From the NCBI RefSeq assembly GCF_006345805.1, contig NW_021836590.1:1-36078 (forward strand): a stretch of DNA of 36,078 nt, in the 5' to 3' direction. Below, piece after piece: positions 796-26,823 of the stretch (the stretch's first letter is position 1; each line of letters opens with the position of its first letter). The notes under the pieces were generated by a model, which saw nothing but the letters and a program-made list of their open reading frames with translations, did no database searches and was not told where the DNA came from. This DNA comes from Octopus sinensis (Eukaryota). Both the position numbers and the translations under genes were made by a program.

Positions 796-811
796 GAATA
801 GATAACCACCA

Positions 812-836
812 TAAATATATATATGCATATATATGT

Positions 837-910
<74 letters not shown>

Positions 911-935
911 CACATATATTATACATATAATATAT

Positions 936-1024
<89 letters not shown>
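812..1024. repeat. (TA)n microsatellite
   Basis: Direct reading. Confidence 0.97.
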
Positions 1025-1320
1025 GATGTAAGGTATACTAGCCATTCAATATGGAACCACTAAGGGTGGATGTTACTGTAGCTTGTAGCCCCAAGGGAAC
1101 ATCGTCTCAAGCTACAAGCTACAGTAACACCCACCCTTACTGGTTAGCCATATTGAGATGGCTAGTATACCTTACATTGTCGTGAAGTTACTGTTTACAT
1201 CTCGTTCAGAGATTTATTATTTCTTGCATACAGTTTTTCGAGATCAGTGACGAAAAGTTACTGGAAAAACGATATATAAGGATTTGCATTGGGACTCCCT
1301 TCATCGAAAACTGGTGATTG

Positions 1321-2133
1321 GGGCTCTGGGGTTCGACGAGGACCAGCTTACCAACCTGTTTAAAAAGACTTTCAGGACGGGGTATTTGGATAATTTTCAA
1401 AGATCCCTGGCCTGGCAGTGTTATAGGAATGCTTTACCTGTTCGCGAGAAGTTATCGCGGCACGGAATTTCAGTGCCACCGACATGTCCAAGATGCGGGT
1501 TGGACGATGAAACCGTCCAGCACGCTTTTGTACACTGTCGGCAGTTGTCAGACTTGATAAGTTACGCAGAACACGTGTTATCGCATCTGGGACGAGTACA
1601 GCTGTCGGCTGAGTCTATGATTAAGATGATACCGCCAACTGGACTCTCGAAGGAAGGTGAGGCATGTTTTCACTGCACGGTTGCAGTAGTAAAAGAATGC
1701 ATGTGGCGTACAAGAATGGAAGGAGTCGCAATAGGATCCTTTGTCTCAGGCCCCGGCTTGCTCACTTACTTCAGATATCATCTGAAGAGCAAAATGGGGC
1801 TGCAAAAGAAGACCTTACCACGAGGTGTGTATGAAAAAAGATGGAAGGAAGTGGCGAAAAAGGTGGGTGTCAGAAACCCAGTTTAACTATGGATGGAGAA
1901 GAGGAAAGGAAAGCTGCGGGGCCTTATAGGTTGCGGGGTTTAATATATCGGTAAGATTTCAATCTAATGTAATGTTATATAGTCAATGCAAAGGACAATT
2001 TAAATACAGTTTTTTGTATAATGAATAATCCATATATTGTGGAAATTTTTAAACGAACCACTTAACTGTTTTTTGTATGTATGTCCTGCTTTGTTCTTCT
2101 ATGTACTGATTTTATAATCGTAATAAAGAATTA
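1321..2133 (+). mobile_element. 5'-truncated Tx1/L1-clade LINE (ORF2 C-terminal zf-RVT domain plus 3'UTR)
   Basis: LAWQCYRNALPVREKL...CPRCGLDDETVQHAFVHC zf-RVT motif; stop at 1886; AATAAA near the end; exact 18-bp TSD atcgaaaactggtgattg at 1303-1320 and 2134-2151. Confidence 0.9.
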
Positions 2134-2144
2134 ATCGAAAACTG

Positions 2145-2203
2145 GTGATTGCCGTACGCAGAAGACAGGCAAATACCTAGAAACTGCAGTCCGTGCGAAT
2201 CAC
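2145..2203 (+). ncRNA. Minimal type I hammerhead ribozyme (core variant CAGAAGA)
   Basis: gtgatt-gc-cgtacg CAGAAGA c-agg-caaata-cct-a GAAA c-tgca-g TC cgtgcg-aatcac. Stem I with distal extension, stem II, palindromic stem III loop and GUC site. U4 is mutated to A. Confidence 0.8.
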
Positions 2204-2429
2204 TTAGGTTGACGAGGAAGGGATGACCTCCCTTTGCAAATACCATAAGGGCACAGAAAGTGTGCCTAAAGCCAGCTGGAGACGATGTTCTTCTGGGGAT
2301 ACAAGCTACAGTAACCAGTGGTTAGCCATATTGAGATGGCTAGTATACCTTACATTGTCGTGCAGTTACTGTTTACATCTCGTTCAGAGATTTATTATTG
2401 CTATATATATATATATATATATATATATA

Positions 2430-2803
2430 CGAGGGTGAGTCAAAAAGTAATGCCATTTCGTTTAAGACAGTTATAATTGCCAACACAGGAACATGTATCA
2501 TACATCAAAAAGAAGCTGGTCCTCTGTGGATCAGATCCCTACTTCTCAACATGGTCACTGTTAATCTCAATAGCAATGTTCCACCTTCGAATGAAAGCAT
2601 GTATCCCTGTCCCGTAAAATTCTATTGACTGTTCTTTGAACCACTTTTTCTCTACAGTTTTCACTTCCTCGTCACTGGAATAATTTAATACCTTCAAACT
2701 ATCATCTCTTCGGCCCCATGAAAGAGGGTTTGAGAGGCAGACATTATTCCAGTGACGAGGGAGTGAAAACTGTAGTGAAGAAGTGGTTCAAAGAACAGTC
2801 AAC
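2430..2803 (-). mobile_element. Mariner 3' remnant with internal fold-back
   Basis: TA-cgagggtgagtcaaaaagtaatgcc TIR. Minus-strand YSSDEEVKTVEKKWFKEQSIEFYGTGIHAFIRRWNIAIE; plus-strand YHLFGPMKEGLRGRHYSSDEGVKTVVKKWFKEQS. Confidence 0.85.
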
Positions 2804-2809
2804 ATATAT

Positions 2810-2973
2810 ACGACAGGCTTCTTTCAGTTTCCGTCTACCAAATCTAGTCTCAAGGCTTTGGTTGGGCTGAGGTTATATTAGAAGACACTTGCCCAAGAAA
2901 CCACACAGTGCAACTGAACCTGGAAACATGTGATTGGGAAGCAAGCTTCTTACCACACAGTCGCCTCTGCGCC
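2810..2973 (-). mobile_element. SINE family A (tRNA-like head, CORE-like cttgggcaagtgtcttc), 5' half
   Basis: Matches the 5' part of 9459-9842. Confidence 0.85.
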
Positions 2974-2992
2974 TATGTACGTGTATATATAT

Positions 2993-3397
2993 ACTCTTTT
3001 ACTCTTTTACTTGTTTCAGTCATTTGACTGCGGCCATGCTGGAGCACCGCCTTTAATCGAGCAACTCGACCCCGGGACTTATTCTTTGTAAGCCCAGTAC
3101 TTATTCTATGGGTCACTTTTGCCGAACCGCTAAGTGACGGAGACATAAACACACCAGCATCGGTTGTCAAGCGATATTGCAGGGGGGACAAATACAGACA
3201 CGCAAACATATACACACACATACACATATATATATACATATATACGACGGGCTTCTTTCAGTTTCTGTCTACCAAATCCACTCACAAGGCTTTGGTCGGC
3301 CCGAGGCTATAGTAGAAGACACTTCCCCAAGGTGCCACGCAGTGGGACTGAACCCGGAACCATGTGGTTGGTAAACAAGCTACTTACCACACAGCCT
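2993..3397 (-). mobile_element. SINE family A, near full length
   Basis: Reverse complement of the 9459-9842 family with (gagtaaaa)n tail. Confidence 0.9.
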
Positions 3398-7053: not shown

Positions 7054-8332
7054 CGAGGGGGTACCCAAAAGAAACCGGAATTTTGCGATATTATTTTATT
7101 CACTTAGTTCTAAATAATCGGCACAGGAGTGGCTGTGAAGGAAGTAGCTTGCTTACCAACCACATGGTTCCGGGTTCAGTCCCACTGCGTGGCGCTTTGG
7201 GCAAGTGTCTTCTACTATAGCCTCGGGCCGACCAAAGCCTTGTGAGTGGATTTGCTAGACGGAAACTGAAAGAAGCCCGTCGTATATATGTATATGTATA
7301 TATGTATGTGTGGTGTGTGTGTTTGTGTGTATGTGTTTGTCCTCCAACATCGCTTGACAACCGATGCTGGTGTGTTTATGTCCCCGTCACTTAGCGGTTC
7401 GGCAAGATAAACCGATAGAATAAGTACTAGGCTTCCAAAGAATAAGTCCTGAGGTCGATTTGCTCGACTAAAGGCGGTGCTCCAGCATGGCCGCAGTCAA
7501 ATGACTAAAACAAGTATATCGCCTCCAAAGTATTCTCCATTTGAAGCAAAGCATCGGTCCAGGTGCGTTTTTCCACTATTCGAAGCAGTGCTGGAACTTC
7601 TGTCAAGTGAGGCCATTTAACGCCTCCGTCGTTTTTCTCTTCACCTCTTCCACATCTGCAAATTCCGTAGCACCAGCTTTCATCACCAGTGGTGACCTTT
7701 GAAAAACGGCCCGGATCAACTTGCAACTTTTCTTTCAGTTCACGAGACGCATTCAGTCAGTGACTGCTTTTGATCTTCCGTGAGCAAGCGAGGCACAAAT
7801 TTTGCTGCAACGTTTTTCATTCGTAATTCCTCGTTCAAAATTCGTTGACAATCATATAAACAAGTTTGTCAATTGTTCGGTGACGGTCCTCCAAGATCAG
7901 TTCATGAATTTTCATGATGTTTTCATTCGTTCGGGACGTCAATGGTCGTTCTGAATGAGTTTGGTCTTCAAGCGACAAGGAACCATTCCTTAAGCATGAA
8001 AACCACTCGTAAACTTGTGTTTTGCTCATGGCAGCTTCCTTATAAGCTGTTTGAAGCATGGCAACTGTTTCGGTCGCCATTTCCCCCAGCAGAAAACAGA
8101 ATTTCACAGATGTACGCTGTTTCTTCGTTTCAGGCATCGCAAAAATCGATGAACAGAGGAGGAACACTTCAAAATAAAGATGTACCATGTGGCAGTACGA
8201 ATACACACGACGACACCGGCCGCAAGACTGATGCCTGAGGGTCACATCAAGTAGCTTCTAGCGGCAGAAGCCTGAACTACAACGAGCTTGTCTCCCACAG
8301 TAACGTTTCCGGTTACTTTTGTGTACCGCTCG
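7054..8332 (-). mobile_element. Internally deleted mariner transposon carrying a nested SINE
   Basis: TA-flanked TIRs cgagggggtacccaaaagaaaccggaa / ttccggttacttttgtgtaccgctcg. HTH region QRTSVKFCFLLGEMATETVAMLQTAYKEAAMSKTQVYEWF; catalytic motif KVTTGDESWCYG. Confidence 0.92.
7119..7514 (+). mobile_element. SINE family A nested in the mariner
   Basis: Full match to family A. Confidence 0.9.
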
Positions 8333-9075: not shown

Positions 9076-9458
9076 CAACAGAACTAAACAAAATCCTGGC
9101 TATCATATGCAAAATAATTGACACGAAGTATCAAGTATTTATTATATCGAAAAGAATTAGAAAATGTTAAGCAAGAAAATTAAGTCACTTTTTGTTGTAA
9201 TTTTTTTTTTTTGTACATATGAAGTCTGAGATACAATTTTAGGGGCAATGTTATTTAATTAGTTTTTTTTTTTTGTGTCTGATGTCAAATTATACTTGGT
9301 TATAAATTGTCAATCCTGAGTTTTAACAGAAACTAGTAATCAGAAAGATAATACGTTCGCCGACGCTGCCTATCATAAGATATATAACAAAACAACGAAG
9401 GAGAACAGCATACGGTATTTGAAGTTGCTATATATATAGTGAAGTTGCTATATATATA

Positions 9459-9842
9459 GGCGCAGGAGTGGCTGTGTGGTAAGTAGCTTGCTAACCAACC
9501 ACATGGTTCCGGGTTCAGTCCCACTGCGTGGCATCTTGGGCAAGTGTCTTCTGCTATAGCCCCGAGCCGACCAATGCCTTGTGAGTGGATTTGGTAGACG
9601 GAAACTGAAAGAAGCCTGTCGTATATATGTATATATATGTGTGCTGTCTGTGTTTGTCTGTATATGGTGGTGTGTTTACGTCCCCGTCACATTAGCGGTT
9701 CGGCAAAAGAGACCGATAGTAGAATAAGTACTGGGCTTACAAAGAATAAGTCCCGGGGTCGATTTGCTCGACTAAAGGCGGTGCCCCAGCATGGCCGCAG
9801 TCAAATGACTGAAACAAGTAAAAGAGTAAAAGAGTAAAAGAG
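9459..9842 (+). mobile_element. SINE family A, full length
   Basis: Head tggctgtgtggtaag...gggttcagtccc (A/B boxes), internal TA/TG repeat, gagtaaaa tail. Confidence 0.92.
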
Positions 9843-13307: not shown

Positions 13308-13798
13308 ATATATATCTATATATGTGTGTGTGTGTGTGTGTGTGTTGTGTATGTATATGTATGTATGTATATATATATATAACATCTACGTCTGCTTCGT
13401 GTTTCTCGCTTTAATTGACAAACAAATTCAATCAACGTATTGATTCAAACTCATTGTAAACGCGGACCTTGTAACTCTTCATCACATTTTGTTAAAAATG
13501 TATATCCGATGTCAACGTATAGATTTCACCAAGAAATGTTTTAAGTGTTGTCTTACTTATTTTATATAATATAAGTTTTACATCCATTACAAACATTACA
13601 GTTATTTGGTTTGTTTAAAAACAAAGATGAAATCAATAGCAACGCTTCTTCTACGTTTACCTATTCTTGTGTTCGTTACAAACATTGTAACCAACCGAAC
13701 AGCGATACACACATACACACATACACAAATACACACAAATACTTACATATACACACATACATACATACATACATACATACATACATACATACATACAT

Positions 13799-13835
<37 letters not shown>

Positions 13836-13897
13836 TACATACATACATACATACATACATACATACATACATACATACATACATACATACATACATA
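13108..13897. repeat. (TA)/(TG) tract 13108-13380 and (CATA)n tract 13705-13897
   Basis: Direct reading. Confidence 0.9.
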
Positions 13898-13945
13898 CTT
13901 ATGCAAATATTAGTGTGTTTGAAAGTTTTTTATGGAGACGATAAA

Positions 13946-14263
13946 GGCGGCGAGCTGACAGAAACGTTAGCACGCCGGGCGAAATGCGTAGCCGTATTTC
14001 ATCTACCGCTACGTTCTGAGTTCAAATTCCGCCGAGGTCTACTTTGCCTTTCATCCTTTCGGGGTCGATTAAATAAGTACCAGTTACGCACTGGGGTCGA
14101 TATAATCGGCTTAATCCGTTTGTCTGTCTTTGTTTGTCTCCTCTGTGTTTAGCCCCTTGTGGGTAGTAAAGAAATAGGTATTGGTATTTCGTCAGCCGTT
14201 ACGTTCTGAGTTCAAATTCCGCCGAGGTCGACTCTGCCTTTCATCCTTTCGGGGTCGATAAAT
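13946..14263 (+). mobile_element. SINE family B with partial second unit
   Basis: Restarts at gtatttcgtc...acgttctgagttcaaattcc near 14185. Confidence 0.9.
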
Positions 14264-14269
14264 TGGTAA

Positions 14270-14418
14270 AAGTTACGGTTGAAGAGCTATTTTTACCACT
14301 ATCCGGGGTGCCCCGGGAAAAATAAGTTGACAAAAGCACACCCATTATGGTGACCAATGTCCTCCTAAAATTGGAGCGACATGAGTGCTAATTTGTGAAC
14401 GTGCATTAAGTACATTCA

Positions 14419-14465
<47 letters not shown>

Positions 14466-14488
14466 CCTGCCTTTTATAGATATAGATT
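14270..14488 (-). mobile_element. Possible non-autonomous Helitron-like 5' end
   Basis: Minus strand begins atctatatctataaaaggcaggatatgtgtgtg, a TC-start plus microsatellite layout typical of small Helitrons; no 3' CTAG end identified. Confidence 0.4.
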
Positions 14489-14628
14489 ATGCACACGATT
14501 ATGCAGAATCGAAAGAACACCAGACAAAATTCCTTGCAATGTTTGTTCTAGCCATTAGTAACAAGTTACTAGAGGCTAATGTTAACCTTTGCATTCGATT
14601 ACATATGCGAAACTTGTAAAACTTCATG

Positions 14629-15027
14629 AGGCGTAGCTGTGTGGCAAGAAGCTTGCCTCCCAACCACATGGTTCCGGGTTCAGTCCCACTGCGTAGCACC
14701 TTTGGCTACTGTCTTCTACAATAGCCTCGAGGCGACCAAATCCCGTGAGTGATTTTGGTAGACAGAAAAATGAAAGAAGACTGTCGCGCGCGCGCGCGTG
14801 TGTGTGTGTGTGTGTTTTTGTCTGTTTGTTCCCCATCAGCGCTTGACAACCGATGCTGGTGTGTTTACGTCCCCGTAACGTAGCGGTTCGGCAAGAAGAG
14901 ACCGATATAATAAGTATAAAGCTTTAAAAATAAGTTCTGGGGGTCGATTTGTTCGGTTACAGCCCTTCAAGGCGGTGCTCCAGTATGGCCGCAGTCAAAT
15001 GACTGAAACAAGTAAAAGACTGAAAGA
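14629..15027 (+). mobile_element. SINE family A
   Basis: Diverged full-length copy. Confidence 0.88.
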
Positions 15028-15242
15028 AGTCCAACTGTTATAGTCACCACCCTAAAAGTATAACAATCTCCTGTCGGCGCTACGCCACTCGTCATTAAGT
15101 AAAACCAGACAGAAACCTGTCGCGAGGGTTACCAAGGGACTCGCTCGAATCTTCGGTTAAAGTGTCCATTTGAAATATATATCGGTCTTCCATATCCTCC
15201 GACTTGTTCTGGGAAGTATAAGGGTGGGAGCACGCAGGATGC

Positions 15243-16164
15243 TGTTTGTTTGAAGCAGTGAAGTTTCCAAATCCACCGCCAATGTTTCTAGACTTTCGTA
15301 GTCATATCTTCAGGATGAATTGCTGTTGGCGCATGTTTCTCTTTTATAATAAGCACAGTTATTATGATTATTACATACATCATTACTTGCATTGGAATTT
15401 TTCCCATTAGACGTGTACGGCATGAGATATGTGTTCATTTTTTTGTGATTATTGTATGTTGTTGTCTGTCTACTTATTTTAAGCCTATCGTTTGCTAACA
15501 ATATTGTTTCCATTGTTGATCCTTTAGTTTTGAGTACAGATGTATTGTCCACAAACGTTTTTCTGTCCCTACATCCATCTACAAGGGTCCAAAAGGAAAC
15601 AGCTGCTAGTGACTAGGGATTGGAAAGTGTATAGGAACCTTTGGAGGGGGCGCCTAAGGACCCTCTAAGAAATTGTAGGCGGAGATGGCTGGCTGGCTGG
15701 ATGGATGGATGAATGGATGAATGGATGGATGGATGGATGGATGAATGGAAGGATGGATGGAAGGATGGATGGATGGATGGATGGATGGATGGATGGATGG
15801 ATGGATGGATGATGGATGGATATGAAAACGTTAGTGGACAATACATCTGTACCTTACAGAATTCCAAACAAAACTAGATGATCAAAGATGGAAACAATAT
15901 TGTTAGCAAGGTATAAAGTTAAAATAGATACACAGACAACAACATACACTAGTCACTAAAAGAAAAAGAACACATAGCTGATCCATTACACATCTATCGG
16001 GCAAAGCTCCATCGCCAGTAATGGTGTTTATAATAATCACATTGGCCGGGTTTATTATAAAAGAGAAACATACACCAACATCACTTCATTCTGAAGATAT
16101 GACTACGAAAGTCTAGAAACATTGGTGATGGATTTGGAAGCTTTACTGTTTCCAACAAACAACC
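15243..16164. mobile_element. Old, diverged inverted repeat (arms 15243-15562 and 15824-16164) with outward-facing hammerhead-like motifs and a (GGAT)n spacer
   Basis: caatgtttctagactttcgtagtcatatcttcag vs ctgaagatatgactacgaaagtctagaaacattg is exact, while the rest of the arms is visibly diverged. Confidence 0.8.
16085..16132 (+). ncRNA. Hammerhead-like motif (mirror copy on minus strand at 15272-15319)
   Basis: ttcatt CTGAAGA tat-gact-acgaa-agtc-ta GAAA cattggt gatgga; stems I and II present, cleavage triplet non-canonical. Confidence 0.5.
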
Positions 16165-16359
16165 AATTTCACTTTTTAAGATTCGATATACTGCCATTGT
16201 TTGTCATTAACAAGTTTATATACAAGTGGGATATGATAAATACCGTTAGATAATATTAACACTCAGAACCATTAGATAATCGATCGGTATAATACTTAGT
16301 AGTCGAGCGTTTCATAGTTGATATCATATGTGGATATACGTATGTTTGCATGAGCAAGC

Positions 16360-16457
16360 GTATATATATATAAATATAATATATATATACATCATATGAT
16401 ACTTTCAATAATTTATATATATATATATATTATATAGATATCCATATATATAATACA

Positions 16458-16490
<33 letters not shown>

Positions 16491-16598
16491 GATATATAAC
16501 TACATATACCTACTATATATATATATATATTATATATATATATATATATACATACATATACATCATATATATATTATATATATACATATACATACATA

Positions 16599-16629
<31 letters not shown>

Positions 16630-16653
16630 CTATTTATATATATATACATATAT

Positions 16654-16705
<52 letters not shown>

Positions 16706-16757
16706 ATATATATATATATAATATATATATATATATTATCTATATATATATATATAA
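16360..16757. repeat. Degenerate (TA)n tract
   Basis: Direct reading. Confidence 0.95.
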
Positions 16758-16904
16758 ATGGACTGATGAGCGCTGTTTCATATGCGTCTTACACATACAA
16801 ACGTGCGTGCGCAAAAACACACTCACACGAATATGTGTGTGTATTGAGGAGGAAAGGTTGAATGCATGTATGTGTGTAAGACGGGTTTTTATAACGACTA
16901 AGCG

Positions 16905-17195
16905 GATGAATGGCGGCTTGTTTTATTGTTTATTGGTTGAGGTTTTTCGCAGCTGAAGAAACATCTTGAATATACGAAGAAATCTTCCGATATTTTAAAG
17001 TTGATCCGATTCTCTGATCAATTATTTACCGAAAAGTAGCCTACCTCCACTCCTGCTTTTTCTAGTAACAAAAGTATTTCAACAATGTTCCGGATTGTAG
17101 CATTTCTACCATTAATATGGCGAAAAAACATGGCGTGGTGACGGTGGCAGACGGAGAGTAGCATACCATAAAAAAAAAGACAAAATGGCGACAAA
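16905..17195 (+). promoter_or_regulatory. Cluster of YY1-like motifs (AANATGGCG); possible promoter/5'UTR
   Basis: gaatggcggc (~16908), aatatggcg (~17114), aacatggcg (~17127), aaaatggcg (~17182) in unique, CpG-richer sequence. Confidence 0.3.
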
Positions 17196-17427
17196 GAGTA
17201 GCGTTTAACGCATATTGATTCAAGTTGAAACCACTACAAAGACAGAGACAGTGGCTAATAAACATGTAGTTATGTTCATATTAGAAGCTTAACTAGCTGT
17301 AAAATTGTTATATATATATAGATTTGATATATATCTATAGATTCGATATATATATATATATATATATCTATATATATATATATATATATATTAGATTCGA
17401 TATATATATCTATAGATTCGATTATAT

Positions 17428-17462
<35 letters not shown>

Positions 17463-17763
17463 ATATACAGAATCTATATTTGAATCTCTCAATCTATTTG
17501 TTTGTCAGCCATTCTGTCTAGCTATCCATATCTACTTAACCATTTGTTTAGCAACATACCTAACTTTCTATATTTATCTATCGACTTATTTATCTGTCTG
17601 CCTATCTATTATGTGTTTGTATATACTTTAATATGTAAAATGCAAAGTTAACCAAAGAAAAATACGAAACAATATGAAAAGGTTTATTTTCACTTTGATT
17701 TTTCTGTTCAGTAACTGTATGCACGTGCGCCACGAAGATATATATAATATATATATATATATT

Positions 17764-17812
<49 letters not shown>

Positions 17813-18000
17813 CATTATATAAAAGGGCTTAGTAAATAAATTACTTTGCCACATACTGAAACTCATTAGAAAATCAGCAGCTAAAAAAATTTTAAACTAT
17901 TTCTAATACTTAAAGAAATCTCTCTCTATATAGTGTTTGCTCAAGTCACTCACGAAAGATGAAGGTAAAAACATTAAAACATCACAAATGCAAAGGTTAT

Positions 18001-18051
18001 TTGAACGTACGTTTTCTAGATAGTCAAATCGACATTTCTTTCGTCAGCTCA
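18001..18051 (-). ncRNA. Minimal type I hammerhead ribozyme (inverted-arm copy)
   Basis: tgag CTGACGA aagaaatgtcgatttgactatcta GAAAA c-gtac-g TT caa. Confidence 0.7.
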
Positions 18052-18475
18052 GAATTCCTTGGTTCGGATTTGGGAAACTGAAAGCGGGAGCATACCTTTT
18101 AGCTTCTATCACTTCTGAAGATCTGCTCGTACTATCAGTGGTTAGCAAATTCAAAATATGCAAGCGAAGAATTTCTTTACATACTGAATACTTTACATAC
18201 TGAATACTTGGTAAAATTGATTAATAATTAATTAATTTTACCCTCAATTGTTGAAATTATAATTTATTTCTCTCTATTTAATGCTTCGGTCTTTACCGAT
18301 AAAACAAAGTGTTTACTAATTTTAACCCACGCTGGTGGAAAGGGGAGAGCAGAATTCTTCGCTTGCTATTTTGAATTTGCTAACACTGATAGTCCGAGCA
18401 GATCTTCAGAAGTGATAGGAAGCTAAAAGGGTATGCTCCCGCTTTCAGTGTTCCCAAATCCGAACCAAGGAATTC

Positions 18476-18526
18476 TGAGCTGACGAAAGAAATGTCGATT
18501 TGACTAATCTAGAACGTACGTTCTCA
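18476..18526 (+). ncRNA. Minimal type I hammerhead ribozyme
   Basis: tgag CTGACGA a-aga-aat-gtc-gattt-gac-taa-tct-a GAA c-gtac-g TT ctca. Stem I tgag/ctca; palindromic GUAC loop; GAA here and GAAAA in the mirror copy suggest consensus GAAA. Confidence 0.78.
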
Positions 18527-18804
18527 ATAACCTTTGCATTTGTGATGTTTTAAAATGTTTTTACCCTCATACTTCGTGAGTTGACTTGAGCACACTATAT
18601 GAGAGAGATTTTCTTTAAGTATTAGAAATAGTTTAAAAAAATTTTTTAGCTGCTATTTCTAATGAGTTCAGTATGTGGCAAAGTAATTTTTTTACTAAGC
18701 CCTTTTATATAATGTAATAATTTGAATCGCCTTAAATGGTCCCTTTACTACTGAATACTTGGTAAAATTGATTAATAATTAATTTAATTTTACCCTCAAT
18801 TGTT

Positions 18805-18857
<53 letters not shown>

Positions 18858-19234
18858 TATATTTAAGTTTAAAGCGATCACCGCGCAATGACTAAAGAAA
18901 ATACTAATAATGGAGCTTATAAGCCCTCGACAGAAAAAAGTAGCTTTTTCCCGTACGCGTGCTACACGAACCCAAACTTCCTTGTTTACGCGACCAACAA
19001 TGCTACCGATTACACTGACGCACAAACCTGCTGGTCCTTGTCAATTTTAAGAACTATAATTAGTTCGTAGTTGTTTTTGTAAACAAACTTTCATGTGCTT
19101 TCACTGCGATGGTTTTGTTAAGCAGTGTCGATTTTTACAATTCTGTAAATAATAATAATAATAGTATTTTATAAGATTAAAGCTTATAGCGATCACTGTG
19201 CAATGACAGTGCAATCTGAGGACATGTACTGAGA

Positions 19235-19870
19235 GTGATAAAAATCAAACATCCAGTCAACATCATGGTGTTTGGAGTGATCATTAGTGATGACGACACT
19301 AGACCTCCATTCATCTTCCCACGCGGCTTCACATTCAACACAGAGACCTACAGAAGTGTCTGAAGAAAGTAGTGCTGCCTTGGGTCAAGAGAGTGGCTGC
19401 TGGAAGACCCTATGTCTGGCAACAGGACTCTGCACCATGCCACACAAGCAAGAGAACCCAGTCATGGCTGTCAGACAATTTCTGCGACCACATCACCCCT
19501 AACATCTGGCCACTTAATTCCCCAGATTGCAACCCCCTTGATTATTATCTGTGGTGCACATTTGATTGGGAGACCAACAAAACTCCTTGTAACATCAAAG
19601 ATGAACTGAAGGCAAGGATTATGGCAGCATTCACCATCTTAAAAGAGATTCGAACTTGAAACGTCAGATGAATATAGTGTTGCATGATATTCTGAAATCG
19701 TCTGGAGGTTATGGTTGAAGCCAATGGCTATTTTATTGAATAAATTTACTCTTTAGTATTTCAAGATATTTTTATGTAATTTTGGTAAATATACCTGTTA
19801 AAATGAGATGTCAGTGATATTTTCAATTTTCGTAATTTAGACGAGAATAATTCTCGTCTAAATTTACCTG
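19235..19870 (+). mobile_element. maT (DD37D) Tc1/mariner transposase 3' remnant with right end
   Basis: KHPVNIMVFGVI...YVWQQDSAPCHTSKRTQSWLSDNFCDHITPNIWPLNSPDCNPLDYY, with 37 residues between the 2nd and 3rd Asp; ends cctg-TA. Confidence 0.9.
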
Positions 19871-19916
<46 letters not shown>

Positions 19917-19968
19917 TATAGATATATGATATATATATATATATATATAGATATTTGATATAATATAA

Positions 19969-19999
<31 letters not shown>

Positions 20000-20032
20000 G
20001 ATATATATATATATAATATATATATATATTAT

Positions 20033-20325
20033 ATGATTCTTGTCGAAGATACGTCTCGCTTTTATCCTTCGAAACGTAGAGTAGATGAAACCTTAGCGAC
20101 TGAAGAAGGTTTTTTTTCGTTGTGTTAACTGTCCTGTACTCCATTTTTTTGTTGTTTTTAAAAAAATGTCCTGTTCCTTTGGTTTGTGTCTATGTTTTCG
20201 TTTCTCTATGTTTCGACGTCCCTTTGGTGTCCTGTACTCATATATGCGTGTATATGTACATGTAGAGGTAGGTACGTACATATATGTTTATATATATGCA
20301 TATGCTATATTTCTTTTATTAATAT
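20033..20325 (+). mobile_element. Insert between (TA)n and (GATA)n; possibly a truncated Penelope-like terminal repeat
   Basis: Only a 3' half-core cGAAAcGTAgag (~20070) is present; T-rich tail. Confidence 0.35.
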
Positions 20326-20386
20326 ATATATAGATAGATAGATAGATAGATAGATAGATTTAGAATAGATAGATAGATATAGATAG

Positions 20387-20423
<37 letters not shown>

Positions 20424-20535
20424 TTTAGATATAGATATAGATATATACATATACATGTGTATATATATGTATAGAGAGAGAGAGAGAGAGTGAGAGAGAT
20501 ACACACACACACAACAACCACACACACACACACAC

Positions 20536-20577
<42 letters not shown>

Positions 20578-20821
20578 ATATATATGTGTGTATGAATGTG
20601 CTTGTGTTTGTATGAATATGCGTATAAATATTCACAGACAAAAAAGTTGAAATATTCTTTGGCCGTCTTTGACGAAACCATATTAGTTTTAGAATAGAAG
20701 ACTTTCCGTTGGTTCAATATTTTTGTTTAGCTACTCCCAGCTAGATTAGTTAGTGTTTAGTACGAGAAATAATCTATAAAAACTCTCATTCGACATACTG
20801 GGGAGGAATAACGTGAAAAGC

Positions 20822-21984
20822 TGTCAGATAAACTCGTTCGTTTTAATTTTGTTTTGTTTTTTGTTTATTTTTATACCTGCCACTCCATTGTCTTATGTCT
20901 TAGAAGAGATTAAATTTATTAAAATTTCTGACACAGGCGTAGGGGTGACTGTGTGGTAAGTAGCTTGCTTGCGAACCACATGGTTCCGGGTTCAGTCCCA
21001 CTGCGTGGCACCTTGGGCAAGTGTCTTCTACTATAGCCTCGGGCCGACCAAAGCCTTGTGAGTGGATTTGGTAGACGGAAACTGAAAAAAGCCCGTTGTA
21101 TATATGTATATATATATATATATATGCGTGTGTGTGTGTATATGTTTGTGTGTCTGTGTTTATCCACCCAACAACGATTGACAACCGATGTTGATGTGTT
21201 TACGTCCCCGTCCCTTAGCGGTTCGGCAAGAGAGACCGATAGAATAAGTACTAGGCTTACAAAAGAATAAGTCCTGGGGTCGATTTGCTCGACTAAAGGT
21301 GGTGCTCCAGCATGGCCGCAGTCAAATGACTGAAACAAGTGAAAGAGTAAAAAAGAGTAAACAATAAACAAAAAGAAAAAGAAAGAACAGAGCTACAAAA
21401 AAATACATAAAATGCTGCGATAAAAATATTTTTCGTGTTAATTCAAATAATATTGGAAAGGATTAAGAAAGCATTAAAAAAAATAATAATAAAGAAACGA
21501 ATTTATCTGACAACCTGATATATAGAACTCAGTCAAAACTATTGAGCAGTTAGTTTTTGTTGGGTTTTTTTTCTTCCTACTTGGCACTCTCTCGTCATAT
21601 GCCTGGAACGAGTTAAGATTTATTCAAATATCGAACACGATAAACAAAGGTAGAAAAGGCTACGAAAAAAATTTTTGTATTAATTCAAACATTGAAAAGG
21701 ATTCAAGAACGAAAAAAAAGCGAACGAATTTATCTGATAACTCAATATAAAACCACTGGATTGTCAGATAAATTCGTTCGTTTATTTGTATGTCTGTACT
21801 CCATCATATGTCTGGAAAATGCTAAAACTTATTCAGATTTCAGAAATGATAAACATGTGTTGTACAGGAGGAAGAAAGCTGCAAAAAAAATCATAAAATA
21901 CTATGATAAAAATACTTTTCGTATTACTTCAAATGACATTGGAAGGGACTAAAATAAACAGAATAATTTGTCTGACAATCTGAT
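20822..21984. mobile_element. Three tandem diverged mariner-type MITE units
   Basis: TIR tgtcagataaattcgttcg / cgaatttatctgacaacctgaTA at 20822, 21498-21520, 21721-21741, 21761 and 21961-21984; homologous interiors; the first unit holds a SINE. Confidence 0.7.
20936..21360 (+). mobile_element. SINE family A nested in the MITE
   Basis: Full-length copy. Confidence 0.92.
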
Positions 21985-22088
21985 GATTAAGATTAACGCG
22001 GTTAAATTTATAATAGTGTGTTGAAGTGTTGTGATTGGTCAAAAGTTTGAACTGATTCAGCAATAGCGACGTACAGTCGATGAAAATA

Positions 22089-22655
22089 TTGGGTTGTCCG
22101 GAAAGTTCGTGCCGATTTTTAAAGGAAATAAAATGGTCAATAAATACTTGTCAATAGCATTTTAAATCAACCAAATATGAACCATTTTGTTGCACAATGC
22201 GTCTCCATCTTTCCTTTAACTTGAAAATACCCTCTTCCCAGAACTGAGGTGGTTTCATGGCAAAGAATTCATCAAGGTATCATTTTATGTCATTCAAGGA
22301 ATTCAAACTTTTACCATTAAGACTATTCTGCAGAGACCTGAATAAGTGGAAATCCAAAGGAGCAATATCTGGTGAATATGGAGGGTGAGGCAACACATCC
22401 CACCCGAGCTGCAGCAATTTTTGTCTAGTTCCCAAAGCATCAAGTGCCGAAAATGAATTTTCTTATCTTCCATTTTAAAGGGTTACAGAATTAACACAGG
22501 TTATAGGAACATAAACCTTCTTCCCCGAAAACATAGCTTAAACTGTGCTCTTAATGGAGGTGTAGTCAAATCCCATTTTATGGACTCAATCATGTTCTAA
22601 AATAAGTCAAAAGGTAAGCTACTATAAATCGGTACGAACTTTCCGGACAACCCAA
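22089..22655 (-). mobile_element. Internally deleted mariner
   Basis: TA-flanked TIRs ttgggttgtccggaaagttcgt; [33 protein letters not shown]...EEGIFKLKERWRRIVQQNGSY. Confidence 0.93.
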
Positions 22656-22834
22656 TATATGTAGAAGTGTTGGATTCGGGGGATGCCATTCGGGGGATGC
22701 CCTTACCATGTGGTTGGTAAGCAAACTACTTACGACACAGCCACTTAAAAAGAAGGTTAACAAAACCTTATATGGACCCCTAAGGGTTATATGGGCCCCA
22801 AGGGTCATATGGACCCCGATTGCAAACCACATGG

Positions 22835-23063
22835 CTTAGACGGTGAATGTGGCCAGCCAGGCAAAATCGGCGATCTGCTACAATCCTTTGCAGTAATTAT
22901 GAGCTCGTTCTTTTCAGTATCTTCTCATTTGTGGCCTGGTTTCGCCAGTTGTTCCTCGGGATCTTTTCGAGGCCCCGTTGATAGAATACAATTAGTTTTC
23001 TATCAGTCCTTACTGTGCTCTTCCAAGTGTTGCTGGCATAGTTCGCATTGTGTAATAAAATAG
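22835..23063 (-). mobile_element. RTE-clade LINE fragment (post-RT region)
   Basis: YASNTWKSTVRTDRKLIVFYQRGLEKIPRNNWRNQATNEKILKRTSS*LLQRIVADRRFCLAGHIHRL. Confidence 0.75.
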
Positions 23064-23669
23064 TTTGCCGAGATGGAAAAATTTAACGTTACGAGCAGAG
23101 TGACAAAAAGTTTCTGTCCGAAACGTTAGAGCTCTCCTCATACCAATGGTAGATTAGTGATCCGAAAATTAAGACATAAAGGGTTAAACGCCAACCAGAC
23201 ATAAATACGATACGCGTAAAAAAGCTATATTTTTGAATGACTACTAATTTGATTTTTCCAGCAAGAACAGGAGACAAATCTAAAAATGATTCGGTTCTAT
23301 TTTAACCTTACTAGAGAAGAATAACCTTCACAACACTTTACTGCTTGTACGAGTGATGAATCGCTAAGTAAATATACAAATAACGGCGTGGGAATATAGA
23401 AATCGGAATTATTTAAGAGAAGCGAGTCCAATCTATCAAACAGATATCTTTAAGGTTGAATGCGTAATCGCCCACTCATACATATTGAAAGACTCATTGA
23501 TGATAAGATATAGGATAGAAACGGCAGGTAGGTAAGAAAAGGAACACCATGATATCAGGTGAAGCAGGAGTTAATAACCAGTTTTTAGAAAGTTTCCCAG
23601 GGTCAAAGGTGCCCTTTACATGTTTATCATATTACAACGATAATAAGTTTCTATCTTCTTTTAACTTCT

Positions 23670-24145
23670 TTTACTTATTTCAGTTATTGGACTGTGACCA
23701 AGCTGGAGCATCGACTTCAAATGTTTTAGTCGAGTAAACCGAACCCAGGATTCGTTTCAGTGGTTAGGGTTTTGCACTCACGATCGCAAGATTGTGATTT
23801 CGGTTCCCTGACCGGGCAGTGCCTTGTGTTCTTAAGTTAAGCACTTCATCTCACGTTGCTATGCGATCTCTTCGACACCTGATGATTGGTATACGATGCA
23901 CCTGTTCAGGTAACATTGATTTTAATGGAGGCAGTGAGCTAATATACAGCACATACCTTTGTTTCAGTCAATTGACTGTGGCTATGCTGGAGCACCGTCT
24001 TGAAGGGTTTTAGTCTAGCATATCGAGCCCACTACTTATTTTATCGATTACTTTGCTGAACCGCTAAGTTGCGGGGTACGTAAACACACCAATACCAGTT
24101 GTCAAGCTGTGGTGGGGGACAAACACAGACACATGCATATATGTA
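23670..24145. mobile_element. Degenerate SINE fragments (family A tails on minus strand; tRNA-like head on plus at 23757-23860)
   Basis: Homology to family A tail and to the family C-like head. Confidence 0.65.
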
Positions 24146-24177
24146 GTCCGATATATATATATATATATATATAATAT

Positions 24178-25045
24178 AAATTAGAGATAAAACCACTATT
24201 ATGCAACTCAAATAGTGCATAAATAACAAATAATATATATTTTTATAAAACATAACTAGATCTCAAAAAGTATAAAAATGAATTATCAATATATAATATA
24301 TAATAAGTAAAAAAACTACGTACGTTTCATGGCTACAATTAAATTCGAATTACAATTAAGTTTAAATTCAATTGAAATAAATTCTATTTAAAATTATAGT
24401 CAATCTTCAGGTTAATGATAATAGTTAAATAAATAAACAAATAGAGTTAAACAATATTTATTTAAAAAATAAATAAAATAATAATTTTTCTTATAGAAAA
24501 AACTCCATTAACTAAATTTGAAACTTAAAACATTAGGATTATTTCCTACAACACATTTATTATGTTAAATATTTAATTTTTAAGGTAAAAAATAGATAGA
24601 AATATGTATTTATCTTTGAAGATATAATTTGGCTTAAAAAACATGATAAACTATCGAATATCTTTAACTCAGTTATACTCCAATATTTAATAACCAAATT
24701 ATTTTACAAAATAATCACTATTAATATTTTTAGATTTAAGTTCACATCTAATGATTATAAAATAATAAATACATAAAAATAGGTATCTAAATTATAATCA
24801 ACAAATATAGTAATTAAAAATTTTCTCTATCAATAAATATATAAACATATAACCAAAAATAAATTAGTCCATTATTACTTACATAAATATTGTAAATATC
24901 TATAGAATATATCTATGAAATACAATTGAAAAATTGAAAAATCAAATTAAAAATGTATAACCTATCTTTAAAAAAAACTTATTATTACTATTATCATCAC
25001 TATTATCATCACTATTATCATCATTATCAAAAACATTTCTACGAT
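24178..25045 (-). mobile_element. Extremely AT-rich hammerhead-bearing element 3
   Basis: Bounded by TA-rich repeats; HHR ~135 nt from the 3' end; no ORF recognised. Confidence 0.6.
24314..24413 (-). ncRNA. Type I hammerhead ribozyme with long stem II
   Basis: aac CTGAAGA t-tgactataa...ttgtagcca-t GAAA c-gtac-g TA gtt; perfect core, GUA site. Confidence 0.82.
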
Positions 25046-25092
25046 CTATATATACGTATGTATATATATATTATATCTATAGATATATAATA

Positions 25093-25591
25093 AATTTATA
25101 TATAGAGGGCATAATTATACATACATGCCAGGAGGCATTATATATACTTGCCAAACGCTAAGAGGGACAATCAGTCATTTCTACCAAAAATATTACTAAT
25201 ACACCGAATGCAATTTTCAAAGTAGACATTTAAAAATATAGGCCTGTATCACAGTGATTCATACTTACGTAATCATCAGCAGGCCTGAATGATTACGTAA
25301 GTATGAAATCACTGTGATACAGGCCTATATTTTAAATGTCTTACTTTGAAAATGGCATTCGGTGGGATAGTAATATTTTTGGTAGAAATGATGATTGTCC
25401 CTCTTAGCGTTTGGCAAGTATATATAATGCCTCCTGGCATGTATGTATAATTATGCCCTCTATATATAAATTAATATGTTCAATAAGAAATAATTATTTC
25501 GAATTTTTTCTCTTATGAGGTTTTTACGCTATCTACCTGACAATTTCTTGTTAAGTTTTCCTTATTAAGTAGTTGTCCTTAATTGCAAAAT

Positions 25592-25595
<4 letters not shown>
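25093..25595 (+). mobile_element. Fold-back hammerhead element 4 (spacer-less ~190-bp palindrome plus 3' tail)
   Basis: Arms 25093-25283 and 25284-25472 centred on aggcct; unique tail to 25595, then (TA)n. Confidence 0.85.
25240..25286 (-). ncRNA. Type I hammerhead ribozyme (mirror copy on plus strand at 25281-25326)
   Basis: aggcctg CTGATGA t-tac-gtaa-gta-t GAA(A) tcactgtga TA caggcct. The minus copy has GAA; the plus copy has GAAA but a damaged CUGAUGA. Confidence 0.75.
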
Positions 25596-25625
<30 letters not shown>

Positions 25626-25629
25626 TACA

Positions 25630-25820
25630 TACGACGAGCTTGTTTTCAGTTTCCGTCAACCAAATCCACTCACAAGACTTTGGTCGACCCGAAGCTATGC
25701 TAGAAGACACTTGCCAAAGGTGCCACTTGCCAAAAGTGCCACTGCGTGGCACCTTTGGCAAGTGTCTTCTAGCATGTGGTTTGTGAGTAAGCTTCTTACT
25801 ACACAGCCACGCCTGCGCCT
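25630..25820 (-). mobile_element. SINE family A 5' half with internal inversion
   Basis: atgctagaagacacttgccaaaggtgccac mirrored by gtggcacctttggcaagtgtcttctagcat. Confidence 0.8.
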
Positions 25821-26363
25821 ATACATGAATGTATGTTTATGTATGTTTAAGAAATTAATCGTGTGAGTGAGTCAGTGACTGAGTGAGTGAGTGAGTGAGT
25901 GAGTGAGTGAGTGACGGAGGTTGGGCGTGGGGAGAGAATGACTGGGTTGCCTGAGACACAGATTGATGAGAACCAATATTTGCGAAGAAGAACTTCCAGA
26001 CGAGCTATGAAATATAGTAACTACATTTATCTCGCATTAATTTAATGTATTACGCTCACATTTACAGACAGGCAAACACATACAGACACCCACCCAGACA
26101 CATTAATTCTATCGGTTATACAGAGGAAGAGCAACGATCTGGTGAAACTTGGTTCATTTGAACTGGTTCAACTGGAACTTTTCTAGTTTGAAACTCTGAC
26201 TAACCTGTAAGAAAATGTTCATTGTTACAGATGCATACATACGAAGAAAATACGCACATGCACACACATGTGTAAGATTAGTGAAAATGTATGCAAAAAT
26301 ACAAACGTGTATATATACACACATTCACGTTTACATGTAATATATATATTTTCACAATTTGAG

Positions 26364-26595
26364 GGCGGCGAGCTGGCAGAAATGTTAGCACACCGGGCGA
26401 AATGCTTAGCGCTATTTCGTCAGCCGTTACGTTCTGAGTTCAAATTCTGCTTAGATCGACTTTGCCTTTCATACTTTCAGGGTCGATAAATTAAGTACCA
26501 TTTACGCACTGGGATCGATGTAATCCACTTAATCCGTTTGTCTGTCCTTGTTTGTCCTCTCTGTGTTTAGCCCCTTGTGGGTAGTAAAGAAATAG
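26364..26595 (+). mobile_element. SINE family B
   Basis: Homology to 9857-10087. Confidence 0.9.
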
Positions 26596-26823
26596 GCTTC
26601 TCGTCTCCATGCTTACATCAAATTCTCAGTTGATGGAATTTATACTTCCTTAGCTGGAAGACCGAAGGAGCTCTTCGGGAATCCGTCACACTTTGGTTCC
26701 ACTGAAATAAGTTCCTTTGGTAATTATTACGATACCGTTTAATTATTGAAGAATCCAGATCAAGCGAGATCTGATGGACATACTGAGATATCAGTCGCAA
26801 CAAGAATATAAGTGAGAGTATAA

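What the first reader, a model, noticed from the sequence alone, without database searches (positions are those of the whole stretch)
1026..2401. Same architecture in an unrelated ~350-nt unit, visible only after removing a nested LINE
Seen: (TA)n, inverted arm (1026-1113), redundant end (1111-1221), unit with HHR (2145-2203), redundant end (2300-2399), (TA)n. No evident sequence similarity to the 17.8-kb element, but the same layout. Inference: a shared insertion mechanism. The CAGAAGA core suggests this copy is inactive.
Basis: partly seen in the sequence, partly recalled or inferred. Interest (0 to 1): 0.72.

Follow-up and report, generated by a model that had tools for sequence, protein, structure and literature searches.

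The report
Penelope-type ribozyme repeat split by LINE
This stretch is one insertion of a short, protein-free, many-copy repeat that carries a hammerhead-ribozyme motif and has the insertion shape of Penelope-like retrotransposons, which likely copied it in; this is a known kind of element, but the LINE that later split it lands at the same spot in most sampled copies of such repeats.

Summary
Window 1026-2401 lies between two (TA)n runs. It holds an inverted 5'-truncated arm, a partial upstream copy, and a full ~356-nt unit with a type-I hammerhead motif. A 5'-truncated L1-like LINE with a 17-bp target duplication interrupts the unit.

- **Family size and reconstruction:** the unit is a high-copy family, with 3441 first-look candidates. 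10 of 34 aligned cores read CTGAAGA; the window copy reads CAGAAGA.
- **One-tail rule:** in 20 of 21 interpretable two-arm insertions, exactly one outer end carries a 46-nt "tail".
- **Second family:** the unrelated element at 17.8 kb of the window (551-nt unit, 90-nt tail) follows the same rule in 14 of 14.
- **What it is:** this is the published insertion footprint of endonuclease-positive Penelope-like elements. The unit is therefore most likely a non-autonomous, retrozyme-like Penelope passenger, a new member of a known kind.
- **Earlier in this scan:** the same kind was found before on other DNA of this genome (e1-9506098).

Self-cleavage, circular RNA and the autonomous partner remain unshown.

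One addition goes beyond the finding. The nested LINE is target-specific: 24 of 29 other sampled copies sit at the same site at the foot of the hammerhead of such units.

The parts
811..1024 (.). left (TA)n microsatellite, the landing site
   Evidence: TRF: period 2, 108 copies
1026..1113 (-). inverted 5'-truncated arm (unit r310 back to r220). Its outer end is the tail-less terminus ...CCTTACAT.
1111..1221 (+). partial upstream copy (r244-356), the 'redundant end' or pseudo-LTR; it includes the tail
   Evidence: (D3, D4)
1222..1320 (+). start of the full unit (r1-97). Its last 17 nt (1304-1320) are the left copy of the LINE's target duplication.
1321..2134 (+). nested 5'-truncated L1-like LINE: last 814 nt, frame ends at 1886, AATAAA at 2122-2127
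   Evidence: zf-RVT. Full-length relatives of ~5.3 kb carry zf-CCHC, Exo_endo_phos, RVT_1 and zf-RVT. Closest solved proteins are L1 ORF2p.
2135..2151 (+). right copy of the 17-nt target duplication TCGAAAACTGGTGATTG
   Evidence: read; D5
2144..2204 (+). type-I hammerhead motif: helix I 2144-2158 with 2192-2204, core CAGAAGA 2159-2165 (U4 to A), helix II 2167-2178, GAAA 2180-2183, palindromic helix III/loop ACTGCAGT 2183-2190. Cut predicted after C2191.
2152..2355 (+). rest of the full unit, up to the tail-less terminus (r98-310)
2356..2401 (+). 46-nt tail (r311-356), present at this end only
2402..2429 (.). right (TA)n
17811..18806 (+). comparison element (family B, 551-nt unit) between (TA)n 17748-17810 and 18808-18855: inverted tail-less arm 17811-18173, partial tandem, 90-nt tail 18717-18806

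Best explanation
Window 1026-2401 is a single insertion, into a (TA)n microsatellite, of a ~356-nt non-coding high-copy repeat with a hammerhead-ribozyme motif; its shape (inverted 5'-truncated arm, partial tandem, 46-nt tail at one end only) matches Penelope-like-element insertions, so it was likely copied in by a Penelope-type reverse transcriptase and GIY-YIG endonuclease, and it was later split by an L1-like LINE.

**Shown here**
- the layout of the insertion;
- the dispersed family with target duplications;
- the fixed 3' termini (r310 or r356) facing outward, and the variable 5' ends;
- the one-tail rule in two unrelated families;
- the LINE's target duplication.

**Inferred from published Penelope biochemistry**
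- The enzyme nicks both strands of AT-rich DNA.
- Each 3'-OH primes cDNA synthesis inside the RNA, at one of two neighbouring start sites. The stretch between the two sites is the tail.
- Synthesis runs towards the RNA's 5' end. On a template longer than one unit it runs over the unit boundary, which gives the redundant end.
- The two cDNAs are joined head to head at arbitrary points.

The hammerhead would cut after C2191 in copies with CUGAAGA. It is probably dead in this copy. It was probably not needed for spread, because sub-lineages with a changed U4 are the most numerous.
For: - **Family and reconstruction:** 3441 first-look candidates, of which 40 were scored, at 90-94% identity. The junction is uninterrupted in 24 of 29 other loci.
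- **Architecture in 50 unique loci:**
  - 23 are two-arm insertions, always with 3' ends outward.
  - 20 of 21 interpretable ones have one tailed end (r352-356) and one tail-less end (r305-313).
  - 19 of 73 arms exceed one unit.
  - 5' ends are scattered.
- **Target duplications:** 6-13 bp, read by eye in 14 loci.
- **TA-rich flanks:** 17 of 50 loci, against 100 of 4450 background 20-mers.
- **Unrelated family B:** 2984 candidates. All 24 unique loci lie in (TA)n, and 14 of 14 two-arm insertions have one tail.
- **No coding capacity:** no open frame over 97 codons across the unit boundary.
- **Literature, passages read:**
  - PMC8557442: pseudo-LTR, adjacent inverted 5'-truncated copy, a 30-40-bp tail often at one end only, (TA)n targets.
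  - PMC11167929: both strands are cleaved and extended, the tail corresponds to the stretch between two internal RT start sites, and hammerhead mutants do not affect insertion in vitro.
  - PMC4209133: extra nucleotide after A9, palindromic helix III, action as dimers.
- **Penelope enzymes are abundant here:** 5029 GIY-YIG candidates, including intact 781-aa frames.
Against: - **No autonomous partner found.** No Penelope element sharing sequence with the unit turned up. Only 30 of 5029 candidate GIY-YIG loci were looked at. The main family there shows no similarity to family A or B.
- **Rfam finds no hammerhead.** No family matches even at E<=10, in this copy or in a CTGAAGA copy.
- **Weak covariation.** Only one pair covaries.
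- **Unusual helix II base.** The pair at the base of helix II is A-U flanked by C and A, not the usual G10.1-C11.1.
- **Difference from the in-vitro result.** PMC11167929 saw no difference in start-site use between the two strands. The strict one-tail rule seen here is therefore not explained.
- **No RNA evidence** was obtained.
Confidence: 0.8

Rival explanations
1. Same element, but the redundant end and tandems come from rolling-circle reverse transcription of a circular RNA. That RNA would be made by hammerhead self-cleavage and ligation (the retrozyme model), not from read-through transcripts of tandem copies.
For: PMC7229834 (passages read) shows 170-400-nt circular RNAs from comparable animal repeats. 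19 of 73 arms run over the unit boundary. Family B arms reach 2.8 units.
Against: Family A arms stop at about 1.5 units (longest regular arm 528 nt). 16 of 34 copies belong to sub-lineages with CCGA[AC]GA, where U4 is changed, yet these are the most numerous. Only 1 of 73 arm 5' ends lies within 3 nt of the predicted cut; this fits either model. No RNA data were obtained.
Confidence: 0.2
2. The units are SINE-like passengers of the L1-like LINE that is found inside them, not of a Penelope element.
For: LINE and units are physically associated in 24 of 29 sampled LINE copies. No Penelope partner was found.
Against: The LINE insertions are plain: 5' truncation plus a 13-17-bp duplication, with no inverted arm and no tail. 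No unit-like sequence belongs to the LINE's own 3' end: the sequence after ...AAAGAATTAA differs between copies. LINE copies are 94-98% alike, while the units beside them are 76-94% alike, so the units are older. The units have no A-tail.
Confidence: 0.06
3. LINE plus flanking unit sequence is one composite autonomous element. The unit would be its terminal repeat, and the 356-nt family its internally deleted form.
For: Full-length LINEs lie between unit r..93 and r77.. in L153, L154 and L156.
Against: 5'-truncated LINEs are still preceded by the upstream half of the unit, with a matching duplication (window, L070, L085). The flanking units belong to different, much more diverged sub-families than the LINE bodies.
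Confidence: 0.04
4. A fold-back DNA transposon, or a local inverted duplication unrelated to retrotransposition.
For: Inverted arms next to a microsatellite.
Against: 27 of 50 loci have a single arm and no terminal inverted repeat. Arm lengths vary from 57 to 528 nt with fixed 3' ends. The short arm is not a subset of the long arm: in L034, r277-356 pairs with r9-309.
Confidence: 0.02

Closest known systems
Insertion units of endonuclease-positive Penelope-like elements (Craig et al. 2021, PMC8557442; Frangieh et al. 2024, PMC11167929)
   Same: Partial tandem (pseudo-LTR), adjacent inverted 5'-truncated copy, a tail at one end only, (TA)n or AT-rich targets, and a hammerhead motif in the repeat.
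   Different: No reading frame at all (356 nt). The tail is 46 nt (90 nt in family B) against the published 30-40. No sequence link to an autonomous element was found.
Animal non-LTR retrozymes (Cervera and de la Pena 2020, PMC7229834; Li, Clavereau and Pollet 2026, bioRxiv 10.64898/2026.07.22.740005)
   Same: Non-coding repeat of a few hundred bases with a type-I hammerhead, many copies, coexisting with Penelope elements. The 2026 preprint argues that retrozymes derive from Penelope pseudo-LTRs.
   Different: Here the copies are mostly dispersed, of 0.2-1.5 units and with inverted arms, not long tandem arrays. GC is 45.5%, at the upper edge of the published range. Circular RNA and cleavage were not shown.
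Minimal or dimeric hammerheads of Penelope elements (Cervera and de la Pena 2014, PMC4209133)
   Same: CUGANGA...GAAA...H order, an extra nucleotide after A9, a 2-bp helix III with a palindromic loop (ACUGCAGU) that would allow dimers, and a 6-bp helix I.
   Different: The base pair of helix II is A-U in this family. It is G-C in sister sub-families next to LINE copies. There is also an extra A before G12.
Target-specific L1/Tx1- and R1-type LINEs (from my own knowledge: Tx1L in Tx1D, R1 in 28S rDNA; PMC4640811 seen in a search listing only)
   Same: The nested LINE has an AP-type endonuclease, an RT, and zinc-finger domains in ORF1 (zf-CCHC) and at the ORF2 C-terminus (zf-RVT). It inserts at one sequence in a multicopy target, with tandem LINE-LINE cases.
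   Different: The target is the foot of a hammerhead in a Penelope-type repeat. One literature search found no such target described.

Membership tests
Penelope-like element insertion unit | partial tandem giving a pseudo-LTR | tested here: met
   1111-1221 repeats 2300-2401. 19 of 73 arms exceed one unit.
Penelope-like element insertion unit | inverted 5'-truncated copy adjacent at the 5' side | tested here: met
   1026-1113 in the window. 23 of 50 family loci have two arms, always head to head.
Penelope-like element insertion unit | short tail present at one end only | tested here: met
   The 46-nt tail is in 2356-2401 only. One tail in 20 of 21 two-arm insertions of family A and 14 of 14 of family B.
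Penelope-like element insertion unit | microsatellite or AT-rich target | tested here: met
   Family A: 17 of 50 loci with a TA-rich flank, against a 2.2% background. Family B: 24 of 24.
Penelope-like element (autonomous) | single frame with telomerase-like RT and GIY-YIG endonuclease | tested here: not met
   No frame longer than 97 codons in the unit. It can only be a non-autonomous derivative.
Penelope-like element (non-autonomous derivative) | sequence shared with the end of an autonomous element | tested here: inconclusive
   30 of 5029 candidate GIY-YIG loci and 4 full copies of the main family were checked, with no similarity.
Animal non-LTR retrozyme | type-I hammerhead with an intact core | tested here: inconclusive
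   Core intact in 10 of 34 copies and CAGAAGA in the window copy. 96% of cells are paired, against 12-47% when the partner is slid, and one pair covaries.
Animal non-LTR retrozyme | self-cleavage and unit-length circular RNA | not testable with these tools
   No run on record as RNA. Contigs cannot show ends.
Animal non-LTR retrozyme | short head-to-tail repeats of 150-450 bp, low GC | tested here: inconclusive
   The 356-nt unit fits. Arrays are only up to about 1.5 units. GC is 45.5%.
Rfam hammerhead families | score at or above the gathering threshold | tested here: not met
   No hammerhead match even at E<=10.
Target-specific AP-endonuclease LINE (nested element) | ORF1 zinc knuckle, AP endonuclease, RT, C-terminal zinc domain | tested here: met
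   Pfam hits on L153 and L154 frames. L1 ORF2p is the closest solved protein.
Target-specific AP-endonuclease LINE (nested element) | insertion at one sequence with target duplication | tested here: met
   24 of 29 other copies are followed by a unit, and in 19 of them the alignment starts at r77-78. The duplication is 13 bp in 3 full-length copies and 17 bp in the window.

The most novel reading that the evidence does not exclude
The LINE that splits this copy is not a chance lodger. It belongs to an L1-like family specialised to land at one 13-17-bp site at the foot of the hammerhead of these ribozyme-bearing repeats, always in the same orientation, so that an intact hammerhead lies 57 nt past the LINE's 3' end. 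That is a transposon using another transposon's ribozyme module as a safe harbour, and perhaps to trim its own read-through transcripts.
Probability: 0.6. Interest if true: 0.6.

Novelty: new member of a known kind. Interest (0 to 1): 0.4.

Why it matters
On its own the element is one more hammerhead-bearing Penelope passenger. It mostly shows that such repeats are abundant in this animal genome.

Three points add something.

1. **The one-tail rule.** Pooled over two unrelated families, 34 of 35 two-arm insertions have exactly one tailed end. This is a hard constraint on the still unsolved Penelope integration cycle. It suggests that the two nicked strands use the two RT start sites one each, which the in-vitro work did not see.
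2. **A changed catalytic U4 did not stop spread.** The most numerous sub-lineages carry that change. This argues from genomic copies that self-cleavage is dispensable for spread.
3. **A LINE family targets the foot of the ribozyme.** This gives a natural system for studying target choice by an L1-type endonuclease.

Tried and rejected
- **Rfam.** Gathering threshold on the whole window. E<=10 on 900-2600, on 8 loci with CTGAAGA (swamped by TA-hairpin microRNA chance hits) and on 131 nt of L006. No hammerhead family matched. I treat this as a limit of the models for Penelope-type variants, not as evidence against the motif.
- **Single-sequence folding.** z-scores were -1.1 to -2.1, and the minimum-energy fold does not reproduce the three-way junction. 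Not informative.
- **Reading '17.8-kb element' as a length.** I tested 13381-31137 between (TA)n runs (no terminal repeats), the SINE pair 3194/21149 and a mariner-like end at 2433 (no second end). All were dropped in favour of the element located at 17.8 kb.
- **Partner search.**
  - GIY-YIG family search, then BLAST of units against 30 loci.
  - The only family A hit, L117/L121, is a diverged two-arm insert beside a broken Penelope copy, not its end.
  - Family B hits in L106 and L113 were not examined and showed no evident link to the Penelope ORF.
  - Four full copies of the main 781-aa family showed no similarity. A regex found no canonical hammerhead inside the elements; one hit in L160 at position 484 lies outside.
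- **RNA.** No RNA holder listed. Contigs of four runs of uncertain kind were laid: no joints or ends that bear on cleavage or circles. I did not use depth to rank parts.
- **Fold-back (snap-back) copying as the origin of the inverted arm.** Rejected, because the short arm is often not contained in the long arm (L034, L037, L038, L040, L057).
- **Pile-up of 5' ends at the predicted cut.** 1 of 73 arms.
- **Clustering of 5' ends at r74-90.** Not above expectation given how the loci were selected.
- **Earlier notes of the scan.** Nothing by place near the finding or by sequence.

Full report
**What is in the window.** Between a long (TA)n run (811-1024) and a short one (2402-2429) lie the following parts, in order.

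- 1026-1113: an 88-nt stretch that is the reverse complement of the sequence following it (92.5% over 67 nt).
- 1111-1221: a stretch that recurs at 2300-2401 (98% over 84 nt, D3; 88% over 112 with a 9-nt gap).
- 1222-1320: 99 nt of unique sequence.
- 1321-2134: an 814-nt block whose open frame matches Pfam zf-RVT (E 1e-10).
- 2135-2401: the rest of the unit.

The 814-nt block is bracketed by identical 17-nt copies, TCGAAAACTGGTGATTG (1304-1320 and 2135-2151, read).

The hammerhead-like motif lies at 2144-2204:

- helix I: 6 bp plus a 5-6 bp outer stem;
- core: CAGAAGA;
- helix II: 3 bp flanked by C and A;
- GAAA;
- helix III: 2 bp with the palindromic loop TGCA;
- then C2191, the predicted cut site.

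**The unit is a real, abundant family.** A search of the window's own genome (2.72 Gb) with 2135-2401 gave 3441 first-look candidates. The 40 that were scored are 90-94% identical and lie on many contigs. In 24 of the 29 other loci the 1111-1320 part runs straight into the 2135-2401 part, overlapping by the 17 nt. The other five start near that point or carry a LINE. The reconstruction is therefore right.

As a coordinate reference I used one natural copy, L006:1421-1776 (356 nt):

- r1 follows the end ...TTATTATTGC;
- the predicted cut is after r137;
- r310 is ...CCTTACAT;
- r311-356 is the tail.

**Anatomy of the insertions.** I annotated 50 unique loci. They come from two searches. The second search used r97-294 only, so it is blind to the tail. 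Ten re-hits or duplicates were removed.

- **Arms.** 27 loci have one arm. 23 have two arms, always head to head with both 3' ends outward.
- **Termini.** 3' ends fall at r305-313 or r352-356. 5' ends are scattered. Only 1 of 73 arm 5' ends lies within 3 nt of the predicted cut.
- **Length.** 19 of 73 arms exceed one unit. The longest regular arm is 528 nt.
- **One-tail rule.** Of 21 interpretable two-arm insertions, 20 have exactly one tailed and one tail-less end. L042 has two tail-less ends. L003 and L016 are ambiguous. In the tail-blind sample the figure is 9 of 10, while 11 of 11 single arms there are tail-less.
- **Independence of the arms.** Either arm can be the longer one, and the short arm is often not contained in the long one (for example L034: r277-356 with r9-309). 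The arms are therefore independent copies, not a snap-back of one cDNA.
- **Target duplications.** Duplications of 6-13 bp are visible in 14 loci. I read these by eye from the flanks printed.
- **Target preference.** A TA-rich flank occurs in 17 of 50 loci. The background is 100 of 4450 20-mers in outer locus sequence and 66 of 1668 in the rest of the window.

The window copy is typical: left arm r220-310 without a tail, right arm r244-356 plus r1-356 with a tail.

**The element at 17.8 kb.** I first took '17.8-kb' as a length and found nothing that fitted. The phrase fits the element located at 17811-18806:

- (TA)n;
- inverted arm 17811-18173;
- partial tandem (18198-18261 repeats 18749-18813);
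- a 551-nt unit with a hammerhead-like motif whose helix III (AACGTACGTT) is again palindromic;
- a 90-nt tail (18717-18806) absent from the inverted arm;
- (TA)n.

The window self-BLAST shows no similarity to family A. This family has 2984 first-look candidates. In 24 unique loci every insertion lies in (TA)n. 14 of 14 interpretable two-arm insertions have one tailed and one tail-less end. Single arms are 5 tail-less and 4 tailed. Two unrelated sequences thus obey the same rules, which is what a shared insertion machinery predicts.

**What machinery.** The rules are those published for endonuclease-positive Penelope-like elements.

- **PMC8557442 (passages read):** partial tandems forming pseudo-LTRs; an inverted 5'-truncated copy at the 5' side; a 30-40-bp tail often present at only one end; (TA)n as preferred target of several clades; hammerheads in the pseudo-LTRs of canonical clades.
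- **PMC11167929 (main text read):** a purified Penelope protein cleaves and extends both DNA strands. Reverse transcription starts at two adjacent internal sites whose spacing corresponds to the tail. It prefers AT-rich DNA. Hammerhead mutants do not affect insertion in vitro.
- **PMC7229834 (passages) and the 2026 preprint 10.64898/2026.07.22.740005 (abstract and section 14):** short hammerhead repeats ('non-LTR retrozymes') are described as likely Penelope passengers.

The unit has no frame over 97 codons. The genome has thousands of GIY-YIG loci (5029 candidates) and intact 781-aa Penelope frames whose copies also end in (TA)n.

I therefore read family A, and the window copy, as a non-autonomous Penelope-type retroelement. 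The mechanism itself (two target-primed syntheses, one from each start site, joined head to head) is inferred, not shown. The published in-vitro work saw no strand preference for the start sites, so the strict one-tail rule remains unexplained.

**The hammerhead.**

- **Core variants in 34 aligned copies:** CTGAAGA in 10, CCGAAGA or CCGACGA in 16, CAGAAGA in 2 (the window among them), other variants in 6.
- **Probable ancestral core:** sister sub-families beside LINE copies have CTGATGA. The canonical core is therefore probably ancestral, and the U4-to-C lineages are derived yet the most numerous.
- **Structure:** the proposed structure pairs 96% of cells, against 12-47% when partners are slid. 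Only one pair covaries (U-A 24, C-G 6, U-G 2). The family is too young for more.
- **Rfam:** no hammerhead is recognised even at E<=10.
- **Match to Penelope-type hammerheads (PMC4209133, passages):** the extra C after A9 and the palindromic ACUGCAGU match. The A-U pair at the base of helix II does not match the usual G-C.

So this is a hammerhead motif of Penelope type. It is probably inactive in this copy (U4 to A), and its activity is untested in any copy.

**The nested LINE is target-specific.** A search with its 3' UTR alone (1830-2134) gave 337 candidates. The 40 that were scored are 95-98% identical.

- **Downstream side.** Of the 29 other fetched copies, 24 are followed directly, after ...AAAGAATTAA, by a unit in the same orientation. 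In 19 of them the alignment starts at r77-78. The five without a match to the reference unit are:
  - two that carry a third hammerhead-like unit type (L076, L085);
  - two that keep only 16 nt of unit (L074, L086);
  - one with no unit at all (L083).
- **Age difference.** The units beside the LINEs belong to several sub-families, 76-94% identical to the reference. The LINE bodies are 94-98% alike. These are therefore independent insertions into older units.
- **Upstream side.** 5'-truncated LINEs are still preceded by the upstream half of the unit with a matching duplication (window, L070, L085). Three full-length copies of about 5.3 kb sit between r..93 and r77.. with the 13-bp duplication TCGAAAACCGGTG. 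L152 has two LINE sub-families in tandem at the site. L012 and L053 carry a second sub-family, 82% identical, at the same place.
- **Type.** The LINE encodes an ORF1 zinc knuckle, an AP-type endonuclease, an RT and zf-RVT. Its closest solved relatives are L1 ORF2p.
- **Geometry.** The site lies in the 5' strand of hammerhead helix I, so a complete hammerhead remains 57 nt downstream of each LINE.

Whether the LINE exploits the ribozyme is speculation. One literature search found no LINE reported with such a target.

**What stays open.**

- **Autonomous partner.** It was not found. Only 30 of 5029 candidate loci were examined, and the main family is unrelated.
- **Expression.** No run on record as RNA holds the unit, and contigs could not show ends. 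Expression, cleavage and circles are therefore untested.
- **Supplements.** I did not see the supplementary files of the papers cited. Repbase-style family lists in them (for example file S1 of PMC8557442) could already name this family or its partner.

**Verdict.** The finding is real and its interpretation holds. It is a new member of a known kind. The scan had already met the same kind elsewhere in this genome (e1-9506098) and in others, including a note that inverted pairs join one longer and one shorter copy (e1-9987643). The added value here is the quantified one-tail rule in two families, the spread of core-mutant lineages, and the target-specific LINE.

Noticed in passing
window 1321-2134; loci L061-L090, L152-L156: The nested L1-like LINE family (337 candidates) inserts at one site of hammerhead units. 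24 of 29 other copies are followed by a unit at the same register. Duplications are 13-17 bp, tandem LINE-LINE cases occur, and a second sub-family (82% identical) uses the same site in L012 and L053.
   Followed up: partly
window 17811-18806 and loci L123-L151: Family B (551-nt unit, 90-nt tail, about 3000 candidates) lies in (TA)n in 24 of 24 loci. It shows one tail per two-arm insertion in 14 of 14. In the window its right-hand copy has GAAC where the left arm has GAAAAC.
   Followed up: partly
loci L157-L160 (G000 C3, C6, C1): [quoted passage not shown] L098 ends in (TA)n about 690 nt after the stop, while many other copies' similarity stops about 48 nt after it. A regex found no canonical hammerhead inside the elements.
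   Followed up: partly
window 2430-2802 and 7835-8257 (-): A mariner-like terminal sequence starts right after the right (TA)n, and 2625-2802 is a 181-nt self-inverted stretch. A frame at 7835-8257 matches the Mos1 transposase HTH (PF17906).
   Followed up: no
window 25090-25475: A 392-nt near-perfect palindrome (94%) beside TA-rich sequence, possibly another two-arm insertion.
   Followed up: no
window 15243-15575 / 15811-16161: An inverted pair (78%, about 350 nt) in which each arm holds CTGAAGA...GAAAGTC, not far from the long (TA)n at 16361-16756.
   Followed up: no
window 2802-3396, 7106-7516, 9443-9838, 14629-15027, 20931-21361, 35316-35643: Many copies of a SINE-like repeat of about 400 nt, in both orientations. 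Seven copies of a second repeat of about 230-300 nt lie at 9855, 13944, 26362, 26822, 28598, 29446 (-) and 32080.
   Followed up: no
locus L025 (family A); loci L133, L136 (family B): In a few two-arm insertions both arms start at the same unit position (r81/r81, rB392/rB392, rB511/rB511), giving a perfect palindromic centre. This differs from the usual unequal junctions.
   Followed up: no
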